A stretch of DNA of 64,000 nucleotides from Auanema rhodensis (Eukaryota > Animalia > Nematoda), in NCBI GenBank assembly GCA_964057225.1, contig OZ059895.1:3534001-3598000 (forward strand). The letters are read 5' to 3'. Numbering within the stretch: the stretch's first letter is position 1; every line of letters starts with the position of its first letter. This document shows, one piece after another, positions 40,501 to 64,000 of this stretch. The translations under genes and the position numbers were made by a program. Below the pieces are notes generated by a model. It was not told where the DNA came from, made no database searches, and was given only the letters and a program-made list of their open reading frames with translations.

Positions 40501-43104
40501 TTTTAATTCAGATTTTTTCAACTTTCACTCAGTTTGTTTTCTAAACTTTGATTAAGAACCTTGTTGTTTGTACACCCATAAAATATACGCAGCACAGGTT
40601 ACCCTTAAATAATGAACTGACCGTCTAATCAGACATGGATCTTCCCAAGTTCTGTTGCTTGAATGGATGTTTTCCTACGTAGGCTAGTAAAACATGCCCT
40701 TCAAAGCATCAGAACATGTGATCACATTCCAATTTTTTTGTATCTATCTTGTAAAGATAGTAATAAACTTTGATTTTTGTACACCCATAAATTATACGCA
40801 GCACAGGTTACCCTTAAATAATGAACTGACCGACTAATCAGACATGGATCTTCCCAAGTTCTGTTGCTTGAATGGATGTTTTCCTACGTAGGCTAGTAAA
40901 ACATGCCCTTCAAAGCATCAGAACATGTGATCACATTCCAATTTTTTTGTATCTATTTTGTAAAGATAGTAAAATATCATATGTTGAACACTATGTTGGA
41001 AAGATTTTAATTCAGATTTTCTAACTTTTATTCAGTTTGTTTTTTAAACTTTGATTAAGAACTTTGATTTTTGTACACCCATAAATTATACGCAGCACAG
41101 GTTACCCTTAAATAATGAACTGACCGACTAATCAGACATGGATCTTTCCTAGTTCTGTTGCTTGAATGGATGTTTTTCTACGTAGGCTAGTAAAACATGC
41201 CCTTCAAAACATCAGAACATGTGATCACATTCCAATTTTTTTGTATCTATTTTGTAAAGATAGTAATAAACTTTGATTTTTGTACACCCATAAATTATAC
41301 GCAGCACAGGTTACCCTTAAATAATGAACTGACCGACTAATCAGACATGGATCTTTCCTAGTTCTGTTGCTTGAATGGATGTTTTCCTACGTAGGCTAGT
41401 AAAACATGCCCTTCAAAGCATCAGAACATGTGACCACATTCCAATTTTTTTGTATCTGTTTTGTGAAGATAGTAAAATATCATATGTTGAACACTATGTT
41501 GGAAAGATTTTAATTCAGATTTTCTAACTTTTATTCAGTTTGTTTTTTAAACTTTGATTAAGAACTTTGATTTTTGTACACCCATAAATTATACGCAGCA
41601 CAGGTTACCCTTAAATAATGAACTGACCGACTAATCAGACATGGATCTTTTCTAGTTCTGTTGCTTGAATGGATGTTTTCCTACGTAGGCTAGTAAAACA
41701 TGCCCTTCAAAACATCAGAACATGTGATCACATTCCAATTTTTTTGTATCTATTTTGTAAAGATAGTAATAAACTTTGATTTTTGTACACCCATAAATTA
41801 TACGCAGCACAGGTTACCCTTAAATAATGAACTGACCGACTAATCAGACATGGATCTTTCCTAGTTCTGTTGCTTGAATGGATGTTTTCCTACGTAGGCT
41901 AGTAAAACATGCCCTTCAAAGCATCAGAACATGTGATCACATTCCAATTTTTTTGTATCTATCTTGTAAAGATAGTAATATATCATATGTTGAACACTAT
42001 GTTGGAAAGATTTTAATTCAGATTTTCGAACTTTTATTCAGTTTGTTTTTCAAACTTTGATTAAGAACTTTGATTTTTGTACACCCATAAATTATACGCA
42101 GCACAGGTTACCCTTAATTAATGAACTGACCGACTAATCAGACATGGATCTTTCCAAGTTCTGTTGCTTGAATGGATGTTTTCCTACGTAGGCTAGTAAA
42201 ACATGCCCTTCAAAGCATCAGAACATGTGATCACATTCCAATATTTTTGTATCTATCTTGTAAAGATAGTAATATATCATATGTTGAACACTATGTTGGA
42301 AAGATTTTAATTCAGATTTTTTCAACTTTCACTCAGTTTGTTTTCTAAACTTTGATTAAGAACCTTGAGTTTTGTACACCCATAAATTATACGCAGCACA
42401 GGTTACCCTTAAATAATGAACTGACCGACTAATCAGACATGGATCTTTCCTAGTTCTGTTGCTTGAATGGATGTTTTCCTACGTAGGCTAGTAAAACATG
42501 CCCTTCAAAGTATCAGAACATGTGATCACATTCCAATTTTTTTGTATCTATCTTGTAAAGATAGTAATATATCATATGTTGAACACTATGTTGGAAAAAT
42601 TTTAATTCAGATTTTCGAACTTTTATTCAGTTTGTTTTTCAAACTTTGATTAAGAACTTTGATTTTCGTACTCCCATAAATTATACGCAGCACAGGTTAC
42701 CCTTAATTAATGAACTGACCGACTAATCAGACATGGATCTTTCCAAGTTCTGTTGCTTGAACGGATGTTTTCCTACGTAGGCTAGTAAAACATGCCCTTC
42801 AAAGCATCAGAACATGTGACCACATTCCAATTTTTTTGTATCTATCTTGTAAAGATAGTAATAAACTTTGATTTTTGTACACCCATAAATTATACGCAGC
42901 ACAGGTTACCCTTAAATAATGATTTGACCGACTAATCAGACATGGATCTTTCCAAGTTCTGTTGCTTGAATGGATGTTTTCCTACGTAGGCTAGTAAAAC
43001 ATGCCCTTCAAAGCATCAGAACATGTGATCACATTACAATTTTTTTGTATCTATCTTGTAAAGATAGTAATATATCATATGTTGAACACTATGTTGGAAA
43101 GATT
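7539..43104 (-). repeat. Satellite DNA array (reverse orientation), 294/295/209-bp monomers in higher-order repeats
   Basis: Reverse complement of the left-arm monomer. Spacings 36883->37472 = 294+295 and 42467->42970 = 294+209. Confidence 0.99.
43101..43104 (+). other. Target-site duplication GATT, left copy
   Basis: Satellite GGAAA-GATT-TTAATTCAG is split as GGAAAGATT|element|GATTTTAATTCAG. Confidence 0.95.
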
Positions 43105-43439
43105 CGTTCCGTTATGCTCTCGCACTATCCTATAGACCAATGTAGTCTATAAGATGTGCGATACAGTGTTCCAGATGTAGCGGTATTAATAGAGCATAAT
43201 GGATAACATAAGACTCATGAAAAGAAAGGTTTATTCTACATAATGATTACAATAAGTTACGATAAGAATTAAAGAGATATAAACTATAGGTGAGCTCTGA
43301 GGAGATGACAAGCCATCCTTAGTCATTCCATGAGACAGAACTAAAGTCTGAGTTCCATATAAAGGGCGTGTCAGCTCCTCTCGTCTCTTGTCGTCTAGCT
43401 CTAACCCGCCTGCTACGTATTGATCATCCGAATGGAACG
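43105..43439 (-). repeat. 3' LTR (335 bp)
   Basis: Matches 54270-54604 with no difference found by eye; ends CGTTCC...GGAACG. Confidence 0.97.
43230..43235 (-). terminator. Candidate polyadenylation signal AATAAA in the 3' LTR
   Basis: TTTATT on the + strand, followed on the minus strand by a T-rich tract. Confidence 0.5.
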
Positions 43440-43475
43440 TGCCATTTTTTCGAGTTTATGTCGCGTCCTCGCGAC
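43440..43475 (-). promoter_or_regulatory. Plus-strand priming region: atypical short purine tract (GAAAAAATGGCA) preceded by a GTCGCG-AGGA-CGCGAC hairpin
   Basis: Lies immediately upstream of the 3' LTR on the element strand; perfect 6-bp stem at 43460-43475. Confidence 0.55.
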
Positions 43476-43996
43476 TATCAAAATGTGTGGCTTGTTTCAA
43501 TCGTAGCAAGAGGTTTAGAGGTTTTACATGTTAAAATACATTGTTGTTGTTCAAATAATACAAAATTATACAATATTAACCTCAACAATATTGTCTAAAA
43601 AGGATTTAATAAGTTTTAAATAAAATAATACATGAGTATAAAGCAAAAACACAATCTTTTAAGAATACTAGAGCTATATTTTGTCAGCGAAAGTGCATGA
43701 AAGTAGCTTTTTGGGCACGACGCTGTATGTCTAACCAATATAGAGCAGAGTAGGGAGAGCTAAGTTATACTCTCAATGAAGCTAGGCTGTTTCTTCAGTT
43801 TTGAAAGAAAACATTATTTGTTTGGAATTATTAAAACAATCCCGTATAATTTCCAGAAATGAATCATTAATTACTTGATGATGACTGTTGCTCAGCTTTG
43901 ATTGCAATATAATGTCTCTCATCTTTCATTTCTTCGGGTTTTTAGGGGAAATTATTTGAGATTGGAGTAACTTTTATGATAATTTGTAGCTATTAT

Positions 43997-44023
43997 TATA
44001 TATATATATATTTTTTTTTTTTT
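43997..44023. repeat. (TA)7 plus T13 microsatellite in the element 3' UTR
   Basis: Read directly from the sequence. Confidence 0.85.
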
Positions 44024-44173
44024 CGATGTGCTTGAAACATGACTGCTCATTAAGTTATAGCTTACTGCTCATCTATCTGTTGTTTGTGTTGGTAAAATTA
44101 ATTTTTAGCTCTAGTTTCCTTAAAACGATTTTTATGCAAAATGTTTAACAAGAGTATAATCAATGTGGTTGTT

Positions 44174-47100
44174 TTATCTTCTTCTTGATGGTATCCAATT
44201 ATGATCTGATGGGTCTTCTGAGTCAATTTCGGTGTCTAATTCTTCGTTATTGTTTCCGTGTATAACTTCGATAATTTCGATGTCACTGTCGTCATCTGAG
44301 TCGCTGTTTCTAGCTTTGGAGCGAGTGTTGTGCGCTGCTCCACATGTTGCACTTCGATTGAAAAGTTTCAAGTTGTCTTTGTGTATATCTTGGAGTTTTC
44401 CAAAAGGATTCTTGATTTGTACCATTGATCCTTTTACTTTGATGACCTCAAAAGGTCCATCATAACATTTCCTCAGCTTTTGACCTATTTTATGTGACTT
44501 AATGGTCAACATAACTTGGTCTCCTTCACTGATGTCTCTTTCTTCAATTCGTTGTCTTGAATCGTGTTTCTTCTTTGCTTGTTGCTGATGTTTTTCCAAG
44601 TTATCTTGAATGATAGATTTTCTTTCTTGACGAAGTTGTTCCATGTTTTCTATATCAATGGATATTGTTCCTGATTCCGGTGTTTCAGGTGATAATTCTT
44701 TATCGAGTCTCATACGACTTTCTTTTCCGAATAAAGCTATATATGGTGATATTCCTGTTGTTGAGTGTGTTGTGGTGTTTAACGCAAAGGTGACTTTTGG
44801 CAAAAATAAGTCCCAATCAGTAACTTCTTCGTTCAAATAATGTGTTAATCCTTCTTCTAACGTCCTATGTAGTCTTTCCACTTGTCCGTTAGAGTTCTTC
44901 TGATGCGGGAGTGTTGGTTCATGTTTTATGCCGAGTTTATCACACATATTTTCGAATTTCTTTGATACAAAATTGGAACCTCGATCTGTTATTAGTCGAT
45001 TTGGAGGTCCATAAATGTATACAAAATTTCTGAGGAATCTGTCGATGACAACGTCCGTAACTATTGTAGGTATAGCAATAGTTGTCGCCCATTTGGAAAA
45101 AGAGTCCTGGATTGTAAGAACGTAGTTGTTGTTTCTTTTTGATGTTGGGAAGGGTCCCATGATATCCATATGTATTCTCTCAAATGGTTTAGATGGTATT
45201 TCGAATTGACCCATTGGCTGAACGGTCATAGCATGAGGGTCTTTCTTTCTTTGTGCGCATTTAACGCATTGTTTCACAAAAATTGCTATGTCCGTTTGCA
45301 TATTTGTCCAGAAGAATCTTCGTAATATGGCTTCTTTAGTTTTATTAATTCCTTGATGTGCCCCGATTGCTGGGTCTTCATGAAATTCTTCGATGATCTT
45401 GCTGATCAGTTCGCTCTCTCGTGGTAAAACTAAGGCTGGGTGTGGTCTTTTCGTGCTCGGTTTTGTGTACAGCATGTTATCAATTACACAATAACGATCA
45501 TTGGAGAGCATGTTTTTCTTTGTTCTGTATTCAATTTCGGCAATTGTCTTTTTGATCCAAGGTGTATTGCTTTGTATTTGTTTAATGTCTGGTATGTTAA
45601 CAAAGTTAACCTGAGCAAGTTGAGGCTCTTTAACTTTCTTTTTCTTTTCTGGCTTTGGATCATTAGTTTCGTCTCCAATGTATCGTGAAAGAGCGTCACA
45701 GACTTTGTTTAGTCTACCTTCACGATATCTGATCTCAATGTTGTATTCCTGTATTACTAATTGAAATTTTGCTAGTCTTCCAAACAAATCTCTTCGTGTC
45801 ATTAAGCTTGTTAATGGTCGGTGATCCGTAATGCATATTGCGTGTGATCCAAGTATATAAGTCCGAAACTGAGCAAGCGCGTATACTAATCCTAGGGCTT
45901 CGATCTCAATAGGAGGATAGTTTCGTTCGGCTTTAACTAATTTTCTACTTGCAAAAGCAATAGGATGTAAGTTTTTCAAAGGTTCATTCGGATCTTCAGG
46001 TTGTAACAGTACTGCTCCGATGGCTATATTGCTGCCATCGCTTTCAATTATGAAAGTACGATCTGCTCTTGGTGGTTTCAGTACTGGTGCTTCCATTAAT
46101 CTTTTCTTTAATTTTTCTAGCGCTTGTTGGCACTGATCTGACCATTTGAAATCTGTGTCCAGTTTTGTGAGATCATATAGAGGGCTTGCGATGTGAGCAA
46201 AGTCTTTAATGAATTTCCGAAAGAATCCTACCATTCCCAAAAATGCTCTAACTCCCGTAGGTGACTGTGGAGCAGGATAGTCTTGGATGGCGGAAACTTT
46301 CTTTGGATCAGGCTTAACTCCATCTCTTCCAACAATTAACCCAAGAAATTTGACTTCTGGTCTAGCAAATGAGCATTTCTTGAGCTTTATCTTCAATCCT
46401 AGTTCTTCAATTCTTTCGAGTACTTCTTCAATATCATATATGTGTTGTTCTGCATTATCTGATATAACAAGTAGATCGTCTAAGTAAACGAATAGTCTGC
46501 ATTTGCATCTGCTTTGAAGGTATCGTACCGCAGTTTGGAAGGTATGTGGAGCGCCACATAATCCCATAGGCATCCTTCTGTATTGATACGTTCCCGTATT
46601 TGTTGTGAAGGCTGTTAAGGATCGGTCTGATTTCTTTAATGGTATTTGGAAAAATCCCGAAACTAAATCAAAATTGGAAAAATATTTTGATCCAGCTGCC
46701 ATATCAATAATGTCGGAGATATTAGGAATTACATATGTTTGCTTCCGTGTAACGTTGTTTAAGGCGCGGAAATCAGTTACAAAACGAAATGTATCGTCCT
46801 TTTTCCTCACTAATACGACAGGACTATTGAACAGTGATGTTGATGGTTCGATTATTCCTTGTTGAAGCATTTCCTGTACTTGTCTTTCAATTTCCTCTTG
46901 TTTCCCTAAGGGTATACGAGTGATCCTAGGTTTAGGCATATCCATGTCAGTTCTTAATGGTATGCTGTGTTCTACAGGGCCTTTGAACAGTCCTATATTT
47001 TTGTCTTCATTGAGGAAAGCCTTTTTTCGTCTGCGAATTATAGAACGTAAATGATCTTTAAGATTTTGTGTAAGATCGGCATCTTTTAGATCAAGTTCTT

Positions 47101-50100
47101 TCATAAAATCAGTTGGAAAAGTAGGTAATTTACTTTCCCAATCAGCTTCAGGTGGAATATAGTCTTGTTTTTGATCAGTTGTGAAGATTTCATAGTCAGG
47201 CATGATTCCTATCTCAGCTTTAGTAATTACGTGTCCTGATGGTAATTCAATAAATTTGTTGGAGTTGTTTTTGAACGTGATATCAATGGAATTAACATCG
47301 CGAAATGCTGTATGGTATTTGGGTGTTAACATATTGTTATTATCTATCGAGAGCATCGCGAAAGAATCGTCTCTGATGGGTTTTTCTAATTGAACTTGTA
47401 GTGTACAAGTTTCGTTTGGAAGCATATCTCGCTGTTTTAAGTTAATCAGATTGACAGTTGTTGATGTTTTGCTGAGTCTTCCGTCAATTCCATTAGCTAA
47501 CCGTACTACGCGGTTTCCAATTTCTAGTGTCCTTTTGTATGGTCTAAGTTTCATGCCAATGTTTTGACTGTCAAGTGTCTTCATGAAATCTAATCCAATT
47601 AATGCTGGTGAAGGGCAGTCTTCATCGTTGGATATATAGAATGTATGATCGATTTCATATCCGGCAATTTCGACGGTTAGATCTATTGTACCGATGAATC
47701 GAAATTCTGATCCGTTTGCTGTTGTAGCACTTGATTTATTGTTCTTTACAAAGTCGTTTAAAGTCAAGTAATGTAGTGTTGATACTCTGATATAACTGAT
47801 AGATGATCCTGAATCCCATAAGGTGAGGACTAATCTGTCATTAACAGTCATCCATAATAGTGGTAAAGATTGATCTTTCCTTTTTGAAATTGAACAAACC
47901 AATGGTATTGCAATTGGTATATACGTCAGTATTGATGGGTAGTATTGCTTCATTATGTTTCTTGGAATGGGTTGATCAGGTTGAGTAACTAGCTCTAAGG
48001 TTTCTTCGTATGTAGGTGGGTTACTATTTCGATCCTTCAGTTCAATGTGCATGACTGGTATCGGAATTGATTTGAGGAAGTAGACCTTGATGATAAATGC
48101 TAGTATGATCACAATTATTATAACAGATGTGATTGCACCAATTGTAATTAGTGTTCGTTCGATTGTCCCTACCATCGTATCAATGAATGAATTCCAAGTG
48201 TTTTTTGTGAATTCGTGTGCTTTAGATATGTAGTCACTACTCTTCTTTAAAACACTATAAGCGGCTGATATTTTAGGATCATTGTGAATTGTATGAAGTA
48301 CATGATTTTGACGGATTGACGCTAAACTAGCACCATAAGCAATGGCTGTGGTCATGGAGTATACACGTGATGTTAAATTAGTGTAAAGGTGTGCTCCAGT
48401 GAATTTTAATGGTGTGATCTTTTCGTGATGCAGTCCATCTCCCATGGATATGAGACTGACATCTACTGTGCCATTGATTCCTTTCCATTCACCGTCTGCT
48501 GACCATACGTCTGTTGGTACGTGATCACAATTGATTTCTTTTCCGTGGGGTAGAAGATCTTTTGATCCTGGTGCTGCGAATAGTAATTGGCCTTCTTCGG
48601 TTAAAATTGGCGTTTCGAGATAACATGTATTGTTTACCGTGTGATTGTGATAAATAGTTTTTGTGAAAACTGTTGGGCAAACATGTACGTGTAATATCTC
48701 ACTTCCAACGAAACGAGCTGCTATGTCTTCTCTTCCAAGGATAGTACGCATAGCGATTGTTGGTTCGATTTGTAAAATTGATCGCCATAGCTCTAGATAT
48801 CTATTTTGGATCTCACATATTGATTCGTATGACTCTTTGAAATGTTTCTGTAGCTCGCTTTGAATCATTGTTGTGGCGTATTGCAAATGATCTTGTGCAA
48901 TCTTGCTCGTAATGTTTTGGCGATACTGTTCTTCCGAGTCAATTTTCGAAGCTATGTAATGAGCTTGAGCCTGAACAGACTGTATTTCTTTTGCTGTTGG
49001 TGTTGATGAAGCTCTCTGTTTCCGAATCAATGTCGTGGGTAAGTATGTTATTTCGTCCATTATTGGAATTTGTTGATCTTTATAAGTGGCGTAGAGCTTT
49101 GTTGATGTTGGCGCCTGGGTAGTCGATATTGTCGCGCGTGCGGTAGTTGTTGCGGTTGTGTAGCTCTCTGTTATTTTCGGCTCGGCTGTCGACGATGGCG
49201 CGCGCGCGGTAGTCGCTGCGGTTGCTTGAGGGCTTGTTATTGCATGCGGCTGCATTGCGGGATCTGATTCGATGGTCGTCTTCCGATCGATTATGGGTTG
49301 GGCTGATGTTGCTGCCGCGCCGCCTGCAGCGACGCTCGGCGTACGCGTCGTGGTTTGCAGCGATTCAAGCTCGAGTTTCTCTGCCATTAGTCTCCTTAGG
49401 TGTTCTGGTGATATTCTACTTGAAGTATAAGGCAATTTCTTTTCAGCAAGTAGTGGCAAGAAAATTTTCAATAATAAATCTTTAGAGATTTTACTAGGCT
49501 TGATGAGCTTAGGGTGTGGACCGATTGGTATTCCAAAATTATTTTTGATATCGTAAAACAGTTTATCAGTATTTTGTACAAACATTCGTGATGCAGGAAG
49601 ATTAATAAATTTCATCTCATCAATGTCTGCTGCTGTTTTGTTTTTCCTAATTTTTATGAGAGTTTTAAGTTCGGTTACAAGATTAATTGTTTCTTGTATG
49701 AATTCGCTCTTTTGTGCTTCTTCATTTGTTAGTATCTTTTGTCGTATCGGTGGTAATTTCACAAAAGATTGTAACACTTCTTGTCTAGATGGAACAGTGA
49801 GGTTTTCTTCGATTATGACTGGGGTATTAGCTAAATCAAGCGCAATACTTTCAGTTCTTTCACGGTAAGTGCCTTCTTTGGTATGAAGAATGCGATCGAA
49901 TTCAATAACAGTTAACCGATCAGATATTTGTTGAAGTAATTGTTTGGGTGTTAGATAAGATATTCCTGTCTTTGTTGCTAACGCCAGTTCTCTTTGTGCA
50001 ACATATTGTAGGATTGCTTCATCTTTATCGCGAAAATCGTATTGTTTAAGAAAATGTCTTAAGGATTTATCATAAATTTGGATTTTAAAGAAAAATTCAA

Positions 50101-52843
50101 ATTTCTCGCGATTAGCAGTTATCCATTCCTTTAAAGAGTACGTGGGATCTGCCATTCGTCTTCCTTTGATTAAAGAGATAATCTGCGTAATGCCCGGATT
50201 GCTCATAATTGGTCTCAAAAAGGCATATGGGCATATGTGAAGCGTATGAGTCTCAAAATCTTCAACTTCCATTACTCTATCTTGGTCTAAAGGGAATGAA
50301 CATCCTGTAGCGATTGCGCGTTTTTGTCTTTTAAACGGCAATTTTCTAAACTCTCTTTCTACGAGGATAGTAATGTTATTGTCATTTGGAAATTTGGGGA
50401 GTATGATGTAGTTCCCCGATGTTGTGTGAAATGCTGGTTGTCTAAAACACGAAGCGATAGGTTTTGGGGTTGGTTTGTTCGAAAGGATAAGAGCAGATTG
50501 TGTGCTCGGAATTAGGATAGTATCGCCGCTAATGATGGCTTCATATGTGTGCATATCTATGTAATTGCAACGGGAATCCGTAGTTTGTGGATCCCAAATA
50601 ATTATTGATGTGTTTGATTTGCAGTTACCATGATGCGCACTGCACCCTTCAGTGTTTAGTAGTAAGTTTGAAAGGATGGTATCGTCTGGCATGCGGGTCA
50701 TAACACCCCGCTCCAGTACTAAACGCGACCGCTCCTCGCACTCGTCGCGGCTAAACGCTCGCGCCGGATCGAAGGAGGGTTCAGGGGTTGCTTGGGCAAT
50801 ACTATCGATTCTTTCTAGTTCCATATTATTCCACTTTCGATCGCGAATTGCCTGCCTGCATGACTGCACGCTTATAGGCTCTATCCTATCGATTGTTTTG
50901 TTGCTGTCGCGAAGGAATAATAAATCGCGTACACACAGCCTGTGCACTTCCTTCGAGCAGCGCCACGCGTCCCACTCGTGGGCTGTGTGATTGCGAGTGT
51001 ATAGATGGACTTGTGTTTGGATCACGTGGTTTGCTTCGGTTAATTTGCATTTCTTTAATGTTGGAGGCATGAGTAGTGCTCCCCCTGTTGCTTTTGTGCA
51101 TGCTTGGTAGCTTGACGCACAAGGTAGCAGTATTGCTGCTGCTAATGCCATTACAACAGTTAATGAGAGTGGTGAAAGAGAGATGGAGTTAACTCTTGAA
51201 GAGCTCCTATCTCTTCCTCTCGATTGGTTTCTTCGTTCTTTAAATTGTACTCGCCTTTGTCCATTTCTTCCTCCTTGATTGTTATATCGAGGATTATAAT
51301 TATTTTGGTACCAATTAGTACCATTATTGCTGTTTTGACGCTCGTTATTTCTTCCAAAATTATTTGGACGGCGATTATTTCCAAAATTATTATTACGTTG
51401 TTGGAAATTGTTATAATTTGAACGGTTTTTATTTGTTTGATAATTTTGATAATTTTGATAATTTTGATTACCGCGCTGGTAACTTCGGTCAAAAGTTCTG
51501 TTATCTCTTCTCTCTTTATTGCGCGTAAAGGGAGCTAGTGCTTGGTTAACTGCATTCACTAGCATCGCCTGAGTGTCTGCCGTCTGGTTCAATATTGATT
51601 CTTCCCAGCGAGCAGCCTCAATCGCCTCAGCAAAGGTTTTGGGCCTTGCTCGGATCACTCCTGCCTTCAGAGTATTTTTAAGTCCTCTCAGGAAGGTTGA
51701 TCTTAGTATGTGATCCTTATGTGGGTCATCACTGGCAAAAGCACTAAGGCTTATTGTTCGCAAAGCCTGAGCAAAGGCATCAATCGAAAGATCCCCTTGA
51801 CTAGTGTTTTGAAGGCTGATCAGTGCTGGGTCCTGATTATATTCAGGACAGAGCTTTGATGTTAAAGCTGCTAACAAATCGTTCCATGAACCCGATGTTT
51901 TAAGGTGTTCAGGAGTTTGTTTGTATGCTTCTTCTGCCGCATCATTTTTAAGAAGCAACGGCAGAAGAGTCAACCTTTCAGGTATCACTAGGCCAAGTGC
52001 ATTAGCGAAGACATTAAATTTCGCGGTAAAGTCGCGGAAATTGCGGCTACCGTCATAAACAGGGCAGTAGGGTGATGTTAAAACTTGGGCAATTGTTGTT
52101 TTCCCCGCTCCGGGTAAATTGGTTGCGGGCTCGGTCATTTTTTTCGGAACAGCTATTACTGTATGTGCAGATCTTGAACTTCCTGACGTAGGAGTAATGT
52201 GCTCTGTTTGGTTATATTGGTTAGGTGTCGTCAATTCGTCTAATCTTGGACTATTGAGAATTGGGGTTGATGTTTGTGGGTTATTTTTCAAAAGTTTTCT
52301 TTGCTCCGGTGAGGTGATTGGAGATAACGTATAGCGCGTGTATGTATTGGGTATTGTAGCAAGTCGCTGTGCTCGGCTAGATTTTGGGTTTGGGTCTTTG
52401 GGTGAGCGATTCAATAAATCAACGACTTTGTTTTTGAGAGATTGTAAGCCTGTTGTTGAAGGTGAACCAGTAGGTTCTTGACTTGAGAGAGAGAGAGAGA
52501 TATCAGAATTATTTAGATTTTTATTATTTTTATTTTTATGTATATTGGAAGAGCGTACCTTTTCTTTCGTAGTGGTGTTCGGTGTCTGTTCGTCTATCAC
52601 CAAGGGTCGCTCGTCGTCTCCAGATGGTATATAGTCCGGATCACTAGAACGTTCTGAAGGAGAAAACGTACCTGCACGGGGCGTGTAAAATTTTTCCACG
52701 TTAGGCTTCTCCTCTGCTGTGTCTTCGTTGATAATGGCGACACTTTGCGCGCGAGTTCGGCTTCTGGTTACTGGAGCTGAGTCGCGGGGATCCGGGTTGG
52801 AGTGCGTACTGAGAGGTACTGCTGAGTTATACCTTCTCTCCAC
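44174..52843 (-). CDS. Gag-Env-Pol polyprotein in a single frame (2889 aa from a GTG; first in-frame ATG at 52138, so the true start is uncertain)
   Basis: Uninterrupted 8.7-kb ORF containing capsid-like, glycoprotein, DSG protease, YLDD RT, RNase H and HHCC/DDE integrase motifs. Confidence 0.95.
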   Translation of the reverse strand: MERRYNSAVPLSTHSNPDPRDSAPVTRSRTRAQSVAIINEDTAEEKPNVEKFYTPRAGTFSPSERSSDPDYIPSGDDERPLVIDEQTPNTTTKEKVRSSNIHKNKNNKNLNNSDISLSLSSQEPTGSPSTTGLQSLKNKVVDLLNRSPKDPNPKSSRAQRLATIPNTYTRYTLSPITSPEQRKLLKNNPQTSTPILNSPRLDELTTPNQYNQTEHITPTSGSSRSAHTVIAVPKKMTEPATNLPGAGKTTIAQVLTSPYCPVYDGSRNFRDFTAKFNVFANALGLVIPERLTLLPLLLKNDAAEEAYKQTPEHLKTSGSWNDLLAALTSKLCPEYNQDPALISLQNTSQGDLSIDAFAQALRTISLSAFASDDPHKDHILRSTFLRGLKNTLKAGVIRARPKTFAEAIEAARWEESILNQTADTQAMLVNAVNQALAPFTRNKERRDNRTFDRSYQRGNQNYQNYQNYQTNKNRSNYNNFQQRNNNFGNNRRPNNFGRNNERQNSNNGTNWYQNNYNPRYNNQGGRNGQRRVQFKERRNQSRGRDRSSSRVNSISLSPLSLTVVMALAAAILLPCASSYQACTKATGGALLMPPTLKKCKLTEANHVIQTQVHLYTRNHTAHEWDAWRCSKEVHRLCVRDLLFLRDSNKTIDRIEPISVQSCRQAIRDRKWNNMELERIDSIAQATPEPSFDPARAFSRDECEERSRLVLERGVMTRMPDDTILSNLLLNTEGCSAHHGNCKSNTSIIIWDPQTTDSRCNYIDMHTYEAIISGDTILIPSTQSALILSNKPTPKPIASCFRQPAFHTTSGNYIILPKFPNDNNITILVEREFRKLPFKRQKRAIATGCSFPLDQDRVMEVEDFETHTLHICPYAFLRPIMSNPGITQIISLIKGRRMADPTYSLKEWITANREKFEFFFKIQIYDKSLRHFLKQYDFRDKDEAILQYVAQRELALATKTGISYLTPKQLLQQISDRLTVIEFDRILHTKEGTYRERTESIALDLANTPVIIEENLTVPSRQEVLQSFVKLPPIRQKILTNEEAQKSEFIQETINLVTELKTLIKIRKNKTAADIDEMKFINLPASRMFVQNTDKLFYDIKNNFGIPIGPHPKLIKPSKISKDLLLKIFLPLLAEKKLPYTSSRISPEHLRRLMAEKLELESLQTTTRTPSVAAGGAAATSAQPIIDRKTTIESDPAMQPHAITSPQATAATTARAPSSTAEPKITESYTTATTTARATISTTQAPTSTKLYATYKDQQIPIMDEITYLPTTLIRKQRASSTPTAKEIQSVQAQAHYIASKIDSEEQYRQNITSKIAQDHLQYATTMIQSELQKHFKESYESICEIQNRYLELWRSILQIEPTIAMRTILGREDIAARFVGSEILHVHVCPTVFTKTIYHNHTVNNTCYLETPILTEEGQLLFAAPGSKDLLPHGKEINCDHVPTDVWSADGEWKGINGTVDVSLISMGDGLHHEKITPLKFTGAHLYTNLTSRVYSMTTAIAYGASLASIRQNHVLHTIHNDPKISAAYSVLKKSSDYISKAHEFTKNTWNSFIDTMVGTIERTLITIGAITSVIIIVIILAFIIKVYFLKSIPIPVMHIELKDRNSNPPTYEETLELVTQPDQPIPRNIMKQYYPSILTYIPIAIPLVCSISKRKDQSLPLLWMTVNDRLVLTLWDSGSSISYIRVSTLHYLTLNDFVKNNKSSATTANGSEFRFIGTIDLTVEIAGYEIDHTFYISNDEDCPSPALIGLDFMKTLDSQNIGMKLRPYKRTLEIGNRVVRLANGIDGRLSKTSTTVNLINLKQRDMLPNETCTLQVQLEKPIRDDSFAMLSIDNNNMLTPKYHTAFRDVNSIDITFKNNSNKFIELPSGHVITKAEIGIMPDYEIFTTDQKQDYIPPEADWESKLPTFPTDFMKELDLKDADLTQNLKDHLRSIIRRRKKAFLNEDKNIGLFKGPVEHSIPLRTDMDMPKPRITRIPLGKQEEIERQVQEMLQQGIIEPSTSLFNSPVVLVRKKDDTFRFVTDFRALNNVTRKQTYVIPNISDIIDMAAGSKYFSNFDLVSGFFQIPLKKSDRSLTAFTTNTGTYQYRRMPMGLCGAPHTFQTAVRYLQSRCKCRLFVYLDDLLVISDNAEQHIYDIEEVLERIEELGLKIKLKKCSFARPEVKFLGLIVGRDGVKPDPKKVSAIQDYPAPQSPTGVRAFLGMVGFFRKFIKDFAHIASPLYDLTKLDTDFKWSDQCQQALEKLKKRLMEAPVLKPPRADRTFIIESDGSNIAIGAVLLQPEDPNEPLKNLHPIAFASRKLVKAERNYPPIEIEALGLVYALAQFRTYILGSHAICITDHRPLTSLMTRRDLFGRLAKFQLVIQEYNIEIRYREGRLNKVCDALSRYIGDETNDPKPEKKKKVKEPQLAQVNFVNIPDIKQIQSNTPWIKKTIAEIEYRTKKNMLSNDRYCVIDNMLYTKPSTKRPHPALVLPRESELISKIIEEFHEDPAIGAHQGINKTKEAILRRFFWTNMQTDIAIFVKQCVKCAQRKKDPHAMTVQPMGQFEIPSKPFERIHMDIMGPFPTSKRNNNYVLTIQDSFSKWATTIAIPTIVTDVVIDRFLRNFVYIYGPPNRLITDRGSNFVSKKFENMCDKLGIKHEPTLPHQKNSNGQVERLHRTLEEGLTHYLNEEVTDWDLFLPKVTFALNTTTHSTTGISPYIALFGKESRMRLDKELSPETPESGTISIDIENMEQLRQERKSIIQDNLEKHQQQAKKKHDSRQRIEERDISEGDQVMLTIKSHKIGQKLRKCYDGPFEVIKVKGSMVQIKNPFGKLQDIHKDNLKLFNRSATCGAAHNTRSKARNSDSDDDSDIEIIEVIHGNNNEELDTEIDSEDPSDHNWIPSRRR
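44400..45400 (-). other. Integrase domain (HHCC zinc finger, DDE core, GPY/F motif); boundaries approximate
   Basis: HEDPAIGAHQG...CVKC; IHMDIMGPF; TDRGSNF; NGQVERLH; YDGPFEV. Confidence 0.95.
45680..46060 (-). other. RNase H domain; boundaries approximate
   Basis: FIIESDGS...IGAVLLQ; AFASRKL..AERNY..IEIEAL; TDHRPL; CDALSR. Confidence 0.95.
46280..47050 (-). other. Reverse transcriptase domain (Ty3/Gypsy type); boundaries approximate
   Basis: SPVVLVRKKD..RFVTDFRALN; FDLVSGFFQI; MPMGLCGAP; YLDD at 46475-46486; VKFLG. Confidence 0.97.
47560..47870 (-). other. Retropepsin-type aspartic protease; boundaries approximate
   Basis: LWDSGSSISYI (DSG at 47807-47815), flap TANGS, C-terminal LIGLDFM. 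Confidence 0.92.
48074..51184 (-). other. Envelope glycoprotein region: signal peptide, Cys-rich ectodomain, furin site, mucin-like segment, gB-like core helix, TM anchor
   Basis: Signal SLTVVMALAAAILLPCASS|YQAC; KRQKR at 50318-50332; about 10 N-X-S/T sequons; HLQY...ICEIQNRYLELWRSILQIEPTIAMRTILGREDIAARFVG...VC...CYLETP; TM TLITIGAITSVIIIVIILAFIIKVYFL. Confidence 0.88.
51190..52138 (-). other. Gag: capsid-like domain (about 51590-52070) followed by an N/Q/R-rich low-complexity tail with no zinc knuckle
   Basis: PVYDGS..F..F..KF; W..L..AL; QGDLSIDAFAQALR; FLRGL; PKTFAEAIEAARWEE, all typical retrotransposon Gag motifs. Confidence 0.85.
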
Positions 52844-52933
52844 CTTGTTAGGACTCTTGGTTTGAAAAAACCTCGAGTGTCTGATTACGTGTGGGATGAT
52901 GGAATTTGAACGTAATTGGGTGGGTATGTACGT

Positions 52934-53137
52934 TTAGTTGTTGGTGGTAAGTTGGGAAAAGCTAGATTGAGACTGACAACTGGTTTGGTCAAGTCGGAAG
53001 GATAGGAATGAATCCAAGGTTCTGGCCATAACTTTAGATCCGCCTTCTACCGTACTTTGAAATTGGACTTTGGTTATCTTGGTCTTTTGGGTCCAATTTG
53101 TATAGCATTTGCATTTTTCTTTTCTCTTTGCACGCAT
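52934..53137 (-). CDS. 67-aa upstream ORF in the same frame as the polyprotein, separated from it by a single TAA
   Basis: 53137-52843 is divisible by 3. Manual translation: ...QLTTNN*TYIPTQLRSNSIIPHVIRHSRFFQTKSPNKVERRY... Confidence 0.35.
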   Translation of the reverse strand: MRAKRKEKCKCYTNWTQKTKITKVQFQSTVEGGSKVMARTLDSFLSFRLDQTSCQSQSSFSQLTTNN

Positions 53138-54256
53138 TATGGATGATTGCCTGGTCTCAATGGGCTTATTCCCTTCTCTTTTTTATAGAATTTTTTGATT
53201 TTTAGTCGCAAACTCCCTTAGGCATTCCAAAAAGTTGCATTAAAATTAGACTTTGGTAATCCATCACTCTATCCAAGAAGAATTACTAGTCCCAATTGCA
53301 TACTTAATTCGTTCGTTCATGGTTCAACGGGAAGTAAGGATCTTTTTTAAGAAATCTACCGTAGTCGTTTTGCAAACCAAAGATCTCGTTTTATAATATT
53401 GAAGTTACATAGCTGACTAAAATTTACAAGAACTATACGAAATTATAAAAAGAATAAGATGATTTGGAATTGAGTCTCATGTTTCTAAACAACAAAACGG
53501 TATGAGGAAGGTGACATATAGTATGGGGAGAAAATCCAACTAATATGCTTTAGCCAACTCGACCTGACGAATAAGTTTAAATTGGGAGATCAGTTTGTGA
53601 GAATATCGCAGGATTTTTCGGACTATAGCGAATGTAAGTTATTAAATTAAACATCCTCTCACTTGTTGTGAGGTTTCCCGTACGATTTTTAAGCGTTTTG
53701 TTATGTTTTTGGATGGTAAATGCTAAAAGTTGTCTGAACGATTTTAAACGCAAAATATAATAGTCCTTATCGCAAAATTATTTAAAATTCAAATTGGCAT
53801 GCTTTTCATCCACAAAATTTAAGAAATAACTGGAGTTATTCTTTCCTCAAAGCCGAAATCAATCCTTAAAAGGAGAATGGTGTGGGTAATAATCAAAATA
53901 TATATAAAATCTTTAGGTGAATCTGTTCACGAATTCAGCCTAAAGTCCTCATGTGGCTTCGAGGTCGGGTAACAGTATAATCAGATGTTAATAGCAAGGA
54001 TATGTGACTTAGGTTCAGACATGACAAAATTGTGAACAACGGGATCAAGTAAAATAAATTCTTCCCAAAATGTATAATTTTACTCTCTTATTATGAGAGT
54101 TCCTTGCATCTGTTCCCTATAACGATGTTGGCCCCTCCGTTTTGTGTTTTAGCGTGGAGAAGATGGCAATGGATAAGAGAAAGTTGAAAAGAAAATGAAT
54201 ATTGCAAGAGTGAATAAAATTTAAGAAAATAAGAGAATAGTAAAAGAAACGTTCGA

Positions 54257-54269
54257 GGTGGAACCTCCA
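54257..54269 (-). promoter_or_regulatory. Primer-binding site complementary to the tRNA-Gln 3' end
   Basis: TGGAGGTTCCACC directly abuts the 5' LTR; metazoan tRNA-Gln ends ...GGTGGAACCT-CCA (recalled, not searched). Confidence 0.85.
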
Positions 54270-54604
54270 CGTTCCGTTATGCTCTCGCACTATCCTATAG
54301 ACCAATGTAGTCTATAAGATGTGCGATACAGTGTTCCAGATGTAGCGGTATTAATAGAGCATAATGGATAACATAAGACTCATGAAAAGAAAGGTTTATT
54401 CTACATAATGATTACAATAAGTTACGATAAGAATTAAAGAGATATAAACTATAGGTGAGCTCTGAGGAGATGACAAGCCATCCTTAGTCATTCCATGAGA
54501 CAGAACTAAAGTCTGAGTTCCATATAAAGGGCGTGTCAGCTCCTCTCGTCTCTTGTCGTCTAGCTCTAACCCGCCTGCTACGTATTGATCATCCGAATGG
54601 AACG
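54270..54604 (-). repeat. 5' LTR (335 bp)
   Basis: Direct repeat of 43105-43439; adjacent to the PBS. Confidence 0.97.
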
Positions 54605-54608
54605 GATT
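54605..54608 (+). other. Target-site duplication GATT, right copy
   Basis: GGAACG|GATT|TTAATTCAG. Confidence 0.95.
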
Positions 54609-57600
54609 TTAATTCAGATTTTTTCAACTTTCACTCAGTTTGTTTTCTAAACTTTGATTAAGAACCTTGTTGTTTGTACAACCATAAAATATACGCAGCA
54701 CAGGTTACCCTTAAATAATGAACTGACCGTCTAATCAGACATGGATCTTCCCAAGTTCTGTTGCTTGAATGGATGTTTTCCTACGTAGGCTAGTAAAACA
54801 TGCCCTTCAAAGCATCAGAACATGTGATCACATTCCAATTTTTTTGTATCTATCTTGTAAAGATAGTAATAAACTTTGATTTTTGTACACCCATAAATTA
54901 TACGCAGCACAGGTTACCCTTAAATAATGAACTGACCGACTAATCAGACATGGATCTTTCCAAGTTCTGTTGCTTGAACGGATGTTTTCCTACGTAGGCT
55001 AGTAAAACATGCCCTTCAAAGCATCAGAACATGTGACCACATTCCTATTTTTTTGTATCTATCTTGTAAAGATAGTAATATATCATATGTTGAACACTAT
55101 GTTGGAAAGATTTTAATTCAGATTTTTTCAACTTTCACTCAGTTTGTTTTCTAAACTTTGATTAAGAACCTTGTTGTTTGTACACCCATAAAATATACGC
55201 AGCACAGGTTACCCTTAAATAATGAACTGACCGTCTAATCAGACATGGATCTTCCCAAGTTCTGTTGCTTGAACGGATGTTTTCCTACGTAGGCTAGTAA
55301 AACATGCCCTTCAAAGCATCAGAACATGTGATCAGATTCCAATTTTTTTGTATCTATCTTGTAAAGATAGTAATATATCATATGTTGAACACTATGTTGG
55401 AAAGATTTTAATTCAGATTTTTTCAACTTTCACTCAGTTTGTTTTCTAAACTTTGATTAAGAACCTTGTTGTTTGTACACCCATAAAATATACGCAGCAC
55501 AGGTTACCCTTAAATAATGAACTGACCGTCTAATCAGACATGGATCTTACCAAGTTCTGTTGCTTGAATGGATGTTTTCCTACGTAGGCTAGTAAAACAT
55601 GCCCTTCAAAACATCAGAACATGTGATCACATTCCAATTTTTTTGTATCTATTTTGTAAAGATAGTAATAAACTTTGATTTTTGTACACCCATAAATTAT
55701 ACGCAGCACAGGTTACCCTTAAATAATGAACTGACCGACTAATCAGACATGGATCTTTCCTAGTTCTGTTGCTTGAATGGATGTTTTCCTACGTAGGCTA
55801 GTAAAACATGCCCTTCAAAGCATCAGAACATGTGACCACATTCCAATTTTTTTGTATCTGTTTTGTGAAGATAGTAAAATATCATATGTTGAACACTATG
55901 TTGGAAAGATTTTAATTCAGATTTTCTAACTTTTATTCAGTTTGTTTTTTAAACTTTGATTAAGAACTTTGATTTTTGTACACCCATAAATTATACGCAG
56001 CACAGGTTACCCTTAAATAATGAACTGACCGACTAATCAGACATGGATCTTTTCTAGTTCTGTTGCTTGAATGGATGTTTTCCTACGTAGGCTAGTAAAA
56101 CATGCCCTTCAAAACATCAGAACATGTGATCACATTCCAATTTTTTTGTATCTATTTTGTAAAGATAGTAATAAACTTTGATTTTTGTACACCCATAAAT
56201 TATACGCAGCACAGGTTACCCTTAAATAATGAACTGACCGACTAATCAGACATGGATCTTTCCTAGTTCTGTTGCTTGAATGGATGTTTTCCTACGTAGG
56301 CTAGTAAAACATGCCCTTCAAAGCATCAGAACATGTGATCACATTCCAATTTTTTTGTATCTATCTTGTAAAGATAGTAATATATCATATGTTGAACACT
56401 ATGTTGGAAAGATTTTAATTCAGATTTTCGAACTTTTATTCAGTTTGTTTTTCAAACTTTGATTAAGAACTTTGATTTTTGTACACCCATAAATTATACG
56501 CAGCACAGGTTACCCTTAATTAATGAACTGACCGACTAATCAGACATGGATCTTTCCAAGTTCTGTTGCTTGAACGGATGTTTTCCTACGAAGGCTAGTA
56601 AAACATGCCCTTCAAAGCATCAGAACATGTGATCACATTCCAATATTTTTGTATCTATCTTGTAAAGATAGTAATATATCATATGTTGAACACTATGTTG
56701 GAAAGATTTTAATTCAGATTTTCTAACTTTTATTCAGTTTGTTTTTTAAACTTTGATTAAGAACTTTGATTTTTGTACACCCATAAATTATACGCAGCAC
56801 AGGTTACCCTTAAATAATGAACTGACCGACTAATCAGACATGGATCTTTCCTAGTTCTGTTGCTTGAATGGATGTTTTCCTACGTAGGCTAGTAAAACAT
56901 GCCCTTCAAAACATCAGAACATGTGATCACATTCCAATTTTTTTGTATCTATCTTGTAAAGATAGTAATATATCATATGTTGAACACTATGTTGGAAAGA
57001 TTTTAATTCAGATTTTTTCAACTTTCACTCAGTTTGTTTTCTAAACTTTGATTAAGAACCTTGAGTTTTGTACACCCATAAATTATACGCAGCACAGGTT
57101 ACCCTTAAATAATGAACTGACCGACTAATCAGACATGGATCTTTCCTAGTTCTGTTGCTTGAATGGATGTTTTCCTACGTAGGCTAGTAAAACATGCCCT
57201 TCAAAGCATCAGAACATGTGATCACATTCCAATTTTTTTGTATCTATCTTGTAAAGATAGTAATATATCATATGTTGAACACTATGTTGGAAAAATTTTA
57301 ATTCAGATTTTCGAACTTTTATTCAGTTTGTTTTTCAAACTTTGATTAAGAACTTTGATTTTCGTACTCCCATAAATTATACGCAGCACAGGTTACCCTT
57401 AATTAATGAACTGACCGACTAATCAGACATGGATCTTTCCAAGTTCTGTTGCTTGAACGGATGTTTTCCTACGTAGGCTAGTAAAACATGCCCTTCAAAG
57501 CATCAGAACATGTGACCACATTCCAATTTTTTTGTATCTATCTTGTAAAGATAGTAATAAACTTTGATTTTTGTACACCCATAAATTATACGCAGCACAG

Positions 57601-63600: not shown

Positions 63601-64000
63601 ATATCATATGTTGAACACTATGTTGGAAAGATTTTAATTCAGATTTTCTAACTTTTATTCAGTTTGTTTTTTAAACTTTGATTAAGAACTTTGATTTTTG
63701 TACACCCATAAATTATACGCAGCACAGGTTACCCTTAAATAATGAACTGACCGACTAATCAGACATGGATCTTTCCTAGTTCTGTTGCTTGAATGGATGT
63801 TTTCCTACGTAGGCTAGTAAAACATGCCCTTCAAAACATCAGAACATGTGATCACATTCCAATTTTTTTGTATCTGTTTTGTAAAGATAGTAATAAACTT
63901 TGATTTTTGTACACCCATAAATTATACGCAGCACAGGTTACCCTTAAATAATGAACTGACCGACTAATCAGACATGGATCTTTCCAAGTTCTGTTGCTTG
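54605..64000 (-). repeat. Satellite array resumes in the same orientation and register
   Basis: The monomer continues exactly where it was interrupted; 209-bp monomers become more frequent toward the window end. Confidence 0.99.

What the first reader, a model, noticed from the sequence alone, without database searches (positions are those of the whole stretch)
48074..51109. The envelope looks like a class III fusogen of the herpesvirus gB / chuvirus glycoprotein type
The segment at 48608-48889 (HLQYATTMIQSELQKHFKESYESICEIQNRYLELWRSILQIEPTIAMRTILGREDIAARFVGSEILHVHVC...CYLETP) matches by eye the gB domain III-IV pattern LQF.Y..IQ...WCE.QN...LW....K.NP......GR.VSAR.LGD...V..C...CYSRP. The N-terminal YQAC and spaced cysteines also fit. 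Established: gB-like env has been reported in the Ascaris Tas element and chuvirus-like glycoproteins in mosquito elements, both BEL/Pao. Here the RT and IN are Ty3/Gypsy-like, which suggests an independent capture and possible infectivity.
Basis: partly seen in the sequence, partly recalled or inferred. Interest (0 to 1): 0.85.

Follow-up and report, generated by a model that had tools for sequence, protein, structure and literature searches.

The report
Nematode gag-env-pol retroelement, known kind
This is an unbroken, likely recently inserted jumping gene, probably from a roundworm, whose one long protein carries, between its capsid and enzyme parts, an envelope predicted to fold like the herpesvirus gB membrane-fusion protein; this kind of element is already catalogued, and only an extra inserted domain with no known look-alike stands out.

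Summary
Observation confirmed. The motif lies exactly at 48608-48889, inside one 2919-codon frame (gag-env-PR-RT-RNaseH-IN) of an 11,500-bp Ty3/Gypsy element with identical 335-bp LTRs, a 4-bp target duplication and a tRNA-Gln primer site, inserted in satellite DNA. The envelope is class III: Pfam Monjiviricetes_fusion above cut-off (E 5e-14), family profile to gB E 2e-16, predicted model to postfusion gB Z 12-13 over up to about 400 residues, both halves collinear. The novelty claim fails. Gypsy elements with gB-type env in gag-env-pol order are published for nematodes (PMC13524379; 36 rows, 8 with a tRNA-Gln primer site). All 19 named of 30 relatives looked up are nematode proteins. Env and RT both group it with a Caenorhabditis element, so there is no sign of a separate recent capture. 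The same env family also occurs in BEL/Pao polyproteins. This scan noted the same class before in flatworm and other DNA. What remains odd: a ~430-residue insert (a helical domain with no Pfam, PDB or viral match, plus a mucin-like stretch) in the gB cleavage loop, conserved in Auanema elements, and LTR ends CG...CG. Infectivity is untested.

The parts
54605..54608 (-). target-site duplication AATC, 5' copy
   Evidence: the empty-site 13-mer occurs 106 times on this strand of the satellite
54270..54604 (-). 5' LTR, 335 bp, ends CGTTCC...GGAACG (not TG...CA)
   Evidence: 0 differences from the 3' LTR
54258..54269 (-). primer-binding site complementary to the last 12 nt of tRNA-Gln
   Evidence: reverse complement equals the tRNA-Gln 12-mer listed for Clat_errantivirus_4 and Ctro_errantivirus_1
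44174..52933 (-). single open frame, 2919 codons stop to stop (P0001); first ATG at 52138 gives 2654 aa; order gag-env-PR-RT-RH-IN
51587..52066 (-). Gag capsid-like domain (aa about 290-449), followed by an N/Q/R-rich stretch
   Evidence: Pfam Retrotrans_gag E 0.0012, below cut-off; shared with many relatives
51110..51187 (-). hydrophobic segment, likely an internal signal sequence cut before YQAC
   Evidence: hydropathy 2.18; a hydrophobic stretch precedes env in most relatives; cleavage inferred
50330..51109 (-). env N-half (aa 609-868): class III fusion domain and domain II, conserved cysteines
   Evidence: 58% identical to Auanema P0002
50912..50923 (-). predicted fusion loop 1 (LLFL, aa 671-674), tip of the long beta-hairpin
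   Evidence: model; column 672 is a large hydrophobic residue in 94% of 51 rows
50753..50755 (-). predicted fusion loop 2 residue F727
   Evidence: large hydrophobic in 57 of 57 rows, aromatic in 75%
50318..50329 (-). furin-type site RQKR
   Evidence: R-x-K/R-R in the spacer of 33 of 69 rows
49364..50317 (-). inserted alpha-helical domain (aa 873-1190) without a known match
   Evidence: model pTM 0.73, pLDDT 72; best Z 3.6 among 48,161 chains; no viral-library hit at E<=0.001; no Pfam hit; first 188 aa 48% identical to P0002
49025..49363 (-). S/T/P/A-rich mucin-like linker, predicted disordered
   Evidence: pLDDT <50; 23% identical to P0002
49013..49024 (-). RKQR, a minimal R-x-x-R site; possible second cut, uncertain
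   Evidence: RTLR at the same place in P0002, not clearly kept in the other Auanema fragments
   Evidence: aa 1330-1530 are 67% identical to P0002
48074..48172 (-). predicted transmembrane anchor
   Evidence: hydropathy 2.97
48008..48019 (-). PPTY (PPxY) motif in the predicted cytoplasmic tail
   Evidence: seen in 2 of 69 rows, this element and P0002
47579..47851 (-). aspartic protease (DSGS)
   Evidence: Pfam PF13975 E 9e-7
46334..46810 (-). reverse transcriptase (YLDD), Ty3/Gypsy type
45743..46144 (-). RNase H
   Evidence: Pfam PF17919 and PF17917
44426..45415 (-). integrase (H2C2 zinc finger, rve core, weak SH3-like tail)
43105..43439 (-). 3' LTR, 335 bp
43101..43104 (-). target-site duplication AATC, 3' copy

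Best explanation
This is an unbroken Ty3/Gypsy LTR retroelement, likely of a rhabditid nematode and likely recently inserted into satellite DNA, whose single gag-env-pol frame encodes an envelope predicted to have the class III (gB-type) fusion fold and likely used to fuse virus-like particles with host cells. Shown: the LTRs, target duplication, primer site, one open frame, domain order, and the profile match to gB and Monjiviricetes G. Predicted: the fold and two hydrophobic fusion loops. Inferred: the hydrophobic segment after Gag acts as an internal signal, so env enters the ER while Gag and, after the transmembrane anchor, PR-RT-RH-IN stay in the cytosol. Signal peptidase, a furin-like protease (RQKR) and the element's protease would then release the parts. 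Env would trimerise, be carried on particles, and drive entry, most likely from somatic cells into the germ line as for Drosophila gypsy (as discussed in PMC13524379). The helical insert and mucin-like linker sit in the gB cleavage loop and would project outward, most likely as an attachment or shielding module. It belongs to the published nematode GAG-ENV-POL, HSV/gB-type group, and env came down with pol rather than by a fresh capture.
For: Element anatomy. Domains. Fold. Fusion-loop conservation. Env is as conserved against Auanema P0002 (58% and 67%) as protease (53%) and the Gag C-terminal stretch (58%), which points to selection on env. 283 relatives at E<=0.001. Of 152 proteins examined, 64 have Gypsy gag upstream and/or pol downstream of env, 17 are BEL/Pao, 71 could not be labelled. 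19 of 30 looked up carry names, all nematode. RT, env-N and env-C trees all pair P0001 with C. japonica P0011 (support 99, 99, 84). Published class; same tRNA-Gln primer 12-mer; the printed Nematoda_C1 row Clat_errantivirus_4 shows the same cysteine pattern by eye.
Against: No expression, particle or fusion evidence. The full model has a low pTM (0.41), and Foldseek TM-scores are low (query-normalised 0.17-0.29) because the insert is 44% of the chain. PF00606 is below its cut-off. Over 16 elements the patristic distances of RT and env are not significantly correlated (Mantel p 0.26 and 0.13), so co-descent is shown only locally. Copy number could not be checked because no genome is held. The host is inferred from relatives only.
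Confidence: 0.85

Rival explanations
1. Independent, lineage-specific capture of a chuvirus- or herpesvirus-like glycoprotein by a Gypsy element.
For: Structural matches to chu-like, rhabdo-like, nyavirus and herpesvirus proteins. The title of Sacco et al. 2022, seen in a reference list, names RNA-virus glycoprotein capture as the origin of the nematode group as a whole.
Against: Nearest relatives are envs of nematode retroelements at 25-60% identity, against 8-16% structural identity to the listed viral proteins. Env and RT place it with the same Caenorhabditis element. The class is published and argued to be ancient.
Confidence: 0.05
2. The env keeps its fold but no longer serves infection; it is a membrane anchor for intracellular particle assembly, or a passenger kept only because it shares one frame with gag and pol.
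For: The single frame forces any copy that still transposes to keep env open, so an open frame alone says little. No RNA or particle data.
Against: Frame pressure would not keep cysteines, fusion-loop hydrophobicity and 58-67% identity at the level of protease, while the neighbouring mucin-like stretch has fallen to 23%.
Confidence: 0.1
3. The insert is cut out at both basic sites and released as a soluble accessory protein rather than staying on the spike.
For: RQKR before it and RKQR after it; RTLR at the second place in P0002; it folds on its own in the model (pTM 0.73); two canonical sites flank long spacers in P0026 and P0044.
Against: The second site is only R-x-x-R and is not clearly kept in P0006, P0009 or P0078; most relatives with a site show just one.
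Confidence: 0.3

Closest known systems
Nematode GAG-ENV-POL, HSV/gB-type env-carrying Ty3/Gypsy elements ('errantiviruses' of Chary and Hayashi, eLife 2026, PMC13524379; non-canonical nematode ERVs of Sacco et al. 2022, title only), nearest the Caenorhabditis tRNA-Gln group such as Clat_errantivirus_4
   Same: Gypsy pol, env between gag and pol, gB-type fold, hydrophobic segments on both sides of the ectodomain, tRNA-Gln primer site with the same 12-mer, LTRs of about 300-400 bp, similar domain I-II cysteine pattern
   Different: The spacer between the env halves is 503 aa, second longest of 69 (Gypsy median 148), and holds a helical domain found whole only in Auanema proteins; PPxY tail; no Auanema row among the paper's 36 nematode elements, though Auanema assemblies were screened
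Herpesvirus glycoprotein B (class III fusogen)
   Same: Central helix and domain IV by sequence profile; overall postfusion fold; N-terminal C-x16-C; cleavage site in the domain II-III loop
   Different: 12-15% identity; smaller core of about 540 aa; part of a polyprotein; no gH/gL/gD partners in the element; large insert
Monjiviricetes (rhabdo-, nyami-, chuvirus) glycoproteins, Pfam PF24664
   Same: Above the Pfam cut-off; the N-half of the family profile matches PDB entries named 'Glycoprotein' (7u9g, 8a1e; recalled as rabies G) at E 5e-6
   Different: Not a stand-alone viral gene; no single virus family stands out
BEL/Pao elements with gB-like env (Ascaris Tas, mosquito chuvirus-like elements)
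   Same: 17 of 152 proteins with this env family are BEL/Pao polyproteins, mixed among the Gypsy envs in three groups
   Different: There env follows pol, the spacer is short (maximum 79 aa) and the pol is of another lineage; Tas itself was not compared

Membership tests
Class III viral fusion proteins | Profile match to gB or Monjiviricetes G | tested here: met
   PF24664 above cut-off; profile to gB E 1.8e-16
Class III viral fusion proteins | Fold: beta-rich fusion domain, long central helix, domain IV | tested here: met
   Predicted model; Z 12.6, rmsd 4.4, 403 aligned to HCMV gB; Foldseek E 1.5e-10
Class III viral fusion proteins | Two hydrophobic fusion loops | tested here: met
   Loop positions from the model; columns 672 and 727 hydrophobic in 94% and 100% of rows; membrane insertion not shown
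Class III viral fusion proteins | Signal sequence and C-terminal transmembrane anchor | tested here: met
   Hydropathy peaks at aa 583-612 and 1588-1628; hydropathy only, no signal-peptide predictor
Class III viral fusion proteins | Trimer | not tested
Class III viral fusion proteins | Membrane-fusion activity | not testable with these tools
   Needs a bench assay
Ty3/Gypsy LTR retrotransposons | PR-RT-RH-IN order with Ty3-like RT | tested here: met
Ty3/Gypsy LTR retrotransposons | LTRs, tRNA primer site, target duplication | tested here: met
   the purine tract before the 3' LTR is short
Ty3/Gypsy LTR retrotransposons | TG...CA LTR ends (usual, not required; recalled) | tested here: not met
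   The ends are CG...CG
BEL/Pao | Peptidase_A17, DUF1759, DUF5641; env after pol | tested here: not met
   Absent from the element but present in the 7 BEL/Pao relatives among 19 scanned
Nematode GAG-ENV-POL HSV/gB-type elements (PMC13524379) | Gypsy pol, gB-type env, gag-env-pol order, uninterrupted frames | tested here: met
Nematode GAG-ENV-POL HSV/gB-type elements (PMC13524379) | Nematode host | tested here: inconclusive
   Inferred from relatives: 19 named of 30, all nematode; nearest Auanema
Nematode GAG-ENV-POL HSV/gB-type elements (PMC13524379) | Cysteine-bridge class C1 or C2 | tested here: inconclusive
   By eye like the Nematoda_C1 rows and unlike C2 (4 rows seen); figures not seen, no computed alignment
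Chuviridae glycoproteins | Nests within chuvirus G in a phylogeny | not tested
   No named chuvirus sequences were held; chu-like entries rank among others

The most novel reading that the evidence does not exclude
In the Auanema-like lineage the class III envelope carries its own attachment subunit: a ~320-residue helical domain of a fold not yet in the PDB, grown from a ~100-residue core seen in Caenorhabditis elements and held on a mucin-like tether in the gB cleavage loop, doing in one chain what gD and gH/gL do for herpesvirus gB. Its integrase also works on CG rather than CA ends.
Probability: 0.2. Interest if true: 0.6.

Novelty: new member of a known kind. Interest (0 to 1): 0.28.

Why it matters
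As a class it is already in print, so it adds one clean, young, full-length example, likely from the Auanema branch, which is not among the paper's 36 nematode elements. How gB-type envs of retroelements recognise and enter cells without herpesvirus helper proteins is stated as unknown in PMC13524379. The conserved inserted domain is a concrete candidate for that role, and the non-standard LTR ends are a lead on integrase specificity.

Tried and rejected
No genome is held, so copy number and solo LTRs were not counted. Sacco et al. 2022 is not in the library; only its title and the eLife paper's summary of it were seen, and it may already describe long env inserts or LTR ends. Word-seeded homologue searches found only P0002 and nothing for the insert among proteins of 2917-5000 aa (weak evidence). 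The protein atlas did not complete. Insert domain: no Pfam family, no PDB chain at Z>=5 among 48,161, no viral-library match at E<=0.001; this does not show that the fold is new. The three-copy complex job for the insert gave no verdict. Expression: no RNA holder listed; the three runs with the same species label are contigs of guessed type. One origin for the BEL/Pao-linked envs was rejected with the N-half (AU p 0.004) but not with the C-half (p 0.13); both used quick LG+G4 trees with long branches, no viral outgroup, and only labelled rows with near-complete halves (65 and 79 rows of 152), so no direction of transfer is claimed. The global RT-env distance correlation was not significant. 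Pfam Ground-like, TIMELESS and Pox_H7 hits were below cut-off and dismissed. One paper search on non-canonical LTR ends listed nothing on CG...CG ends in nematodes; one search does not show absence from print.

Full report
Observation. Both lie in one frame of 2919 codons, 52933-44174, the only long frame in the window. Pfam gives Monjiviricetes_fusion above its cut-off (E 4.9e-14) and Glycoprotein_B at E 1.3e-8, below its cut-off. Alone, the sequence reaches gB in the PDB only at E 0.0025. A profile of 80 sequences (the window's env and 79 relatives) reaches gB at E 1.8e-16 through the C-half, and entries named 'Glycoprotein' (recalled as rabies G) at E 5e-6 through the N-half.

Fold. An AlphaFold2 model of aa 609-1590 (pLDDT 72, pTM 0.41) matches postfusion gB by Foldseek (E 1.5e-10) and VIA-align (Z 12.6, rmsd 4.4, 403 aligned, model 1-900 against HCMV gB 91-657), so both halves are collinear with gB and the middle is looped out. 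The viral library ranks rhabdo-like, herpesvirus, nyavirus and chu-like proteins together, so the chuvirus label is not specific. Two loop tips are hydrophobic across the family: column 672 in 94% of 51 rows and column 727 in all 57 rows.

The element. Two identical 335-bp LTRs (54604-54270, 43439-43105) bound 11,500 bp, with a 4-bp duplication AATC of a site found empty 106 times on that strand of the surrounding satellite. Identical LTRs suggest a recent insertion (inference). The primer site matches the tRNA-Gln 12-mer listed for two Caenorhabditis elements. The order is gag, hydrophobic segment, env, membrane anchor, protease, RT, RNase H, integrase. Pol is Ty3/Gypsy: best PDB match Ty3-G at E 3e-109, with no BEL/Pao families. 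The LTR ends are CG...CG, not TG...CA.

Relatives. The env has 283 relatives at E<=0.001; the best 150, the query and P0002 were analysed. 64 of 152 have Gypsy gag before and/or pol after env, 17 are BEL/Pao with env last, and 71 could not be labelled. The nearest is an Auanema protein at 48%. Of 30 proteins looked up, 19 carry names and all are nematode: 9 Auanema, 7 Caenorhabditis, 3 others. Against P0002 the env halves are 58% and 67% identical, protease 53%, the mucin-like stretch 23%, so env is under constraint beyond keeping the frame open. Among 16 elements with RT, RNase H and both env halves, all three trees pair this element with a C. japonica element, and one seven-member group recurs in the RT and env-N trees, but overall distances are not significantly correlated. 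BEL/Pao envs fall into three groups among the Gypsy envs; one origin is rejected by the N-half (p 0.004) but not by the C-half (p 0.13).

What is known. Chary and Hayashi (PMC13524379; I read the abstract, section 5 part 1, discussion part 1, keyword passages, all 36 nematode rows of supplement 1 and a few rows of other supplements; figures not seen) report that nematode, bryozoan and flatworm Ty3/Gypsy elements carry HSV/gB-type env in GAG-ENV-POL order and argue for an ancient origin. They cite Sacco et al. 2022 for the nematode group; that paper is not held and I saw only its title and their summary. 8 of the 36 nematode rows have a tRNA-Gln primer site; none is from Auanema, though two Auanema assemblies were screened. 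Earlier notes of this scan reached the same class for flatworm and other DNA; none matched this sequence.

What is left over. The spacer between the env halves is 503 aa, second longest of 69 (Gypsy median 148, BEL/Pao median 42). It starts after RQKR and holds a ~320-aa helical domain and a ~110-aa mucin-like stretch ending at RKQR. The domain is predicted to fold on its own (pTM 0.73). It is found in Auanema proteins and, as a ~100-aa core, weakly in C. japonica proteins (P0007 E 5e-7, P0011 E 8e-4 in a 152-sequence set). It has no Pfam, PDB or viral-library match, which does not prove a new fold. Keyword look-ups in the eLife text found no mention of such a domain; Sacco et al. and the figures could not be checked.

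Mechanism. Shown: anatomy and homology. Predicted: class III fold and fusion loops. Inferred: one polyprotein crosses the ER membrane twice, leaving Gag and Pol in the cytosol and env in the lumen; host and element proteases cut it; env trimers on particles fuse with target cells, most likely to reach the germ line; the insert projects from the cleavage loop as an attachment or shielding module, or is released if the second site is cut. Confidence 0.85 for class and role, 0.2 for the attachment-subunit reading. No expression data were obtained.

Verdict. Real, and correctly recognised as a class III envelope, but a new member of a published kind. Interest 0.28, carried by the inserted domain and the LTR ends.

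Noticed in passing
window 54270-54604 and 43105-43439: The LTRs begin CGTTCC and end GGAACG (a 6-bp inverted repeat), so both processed 3' ends would be CG rather than CA; the boundaries are fixed by the 4-bp target duplication and the many empty sites in the satellite.
   Followed up: partly
window 1-43100 and 54609-64000: The rest of the window is a satellite array of about 295/294/209-bp units in a higher-order pattern at about 33% GC; skews flip and inverted copies appear near 7-8 kb, so the array changes orientation there.
   Followed up: no
window 43443-44367, 50253-50330, 52559-54371: Contigs from three runs with the same species label (X1-X3, type guessed) hold internally deleted relatives, one of about 2.8 kb keeping both untranslated regions and a 78-nt scrap of env, at greater depth than the coding parts; likely a non-autonomous family.
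   Followed up: no
window 52139-52933: 265 stop-free codons, S/T/P/N-rich, precede the first in-frame ATG; a non-AUG start or splice could extend Gag. The leader from the LTR to the ATG is 2131 nt with 18 ATGs.
   Followed up: partly
window 48008-48019: PPxY motif in the env tail between the membrane anchor and the protease, kept in Auanema P0002; could serve budding or endocytosis (inference).
   Followed up: partly
P0021, P0034, P0035, P0049, P0062, P0103 and 11 more: BEL/Pao polyproteins carry the same env family in three groups mixed among Gypsy envs, which hints at repeated exchange of env between the two superfamilies; the 6 looked up have no source name, so their hosts are unknown.
   Followed up: partly
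P0017, P0022, P0027, P0044, P0057, P0115, P0128: Other relatives have spacers of 300-515 aa at the same loop that do not match this insert; the loop seems to be a hot spot for unrelated additions.
   Followed up: no
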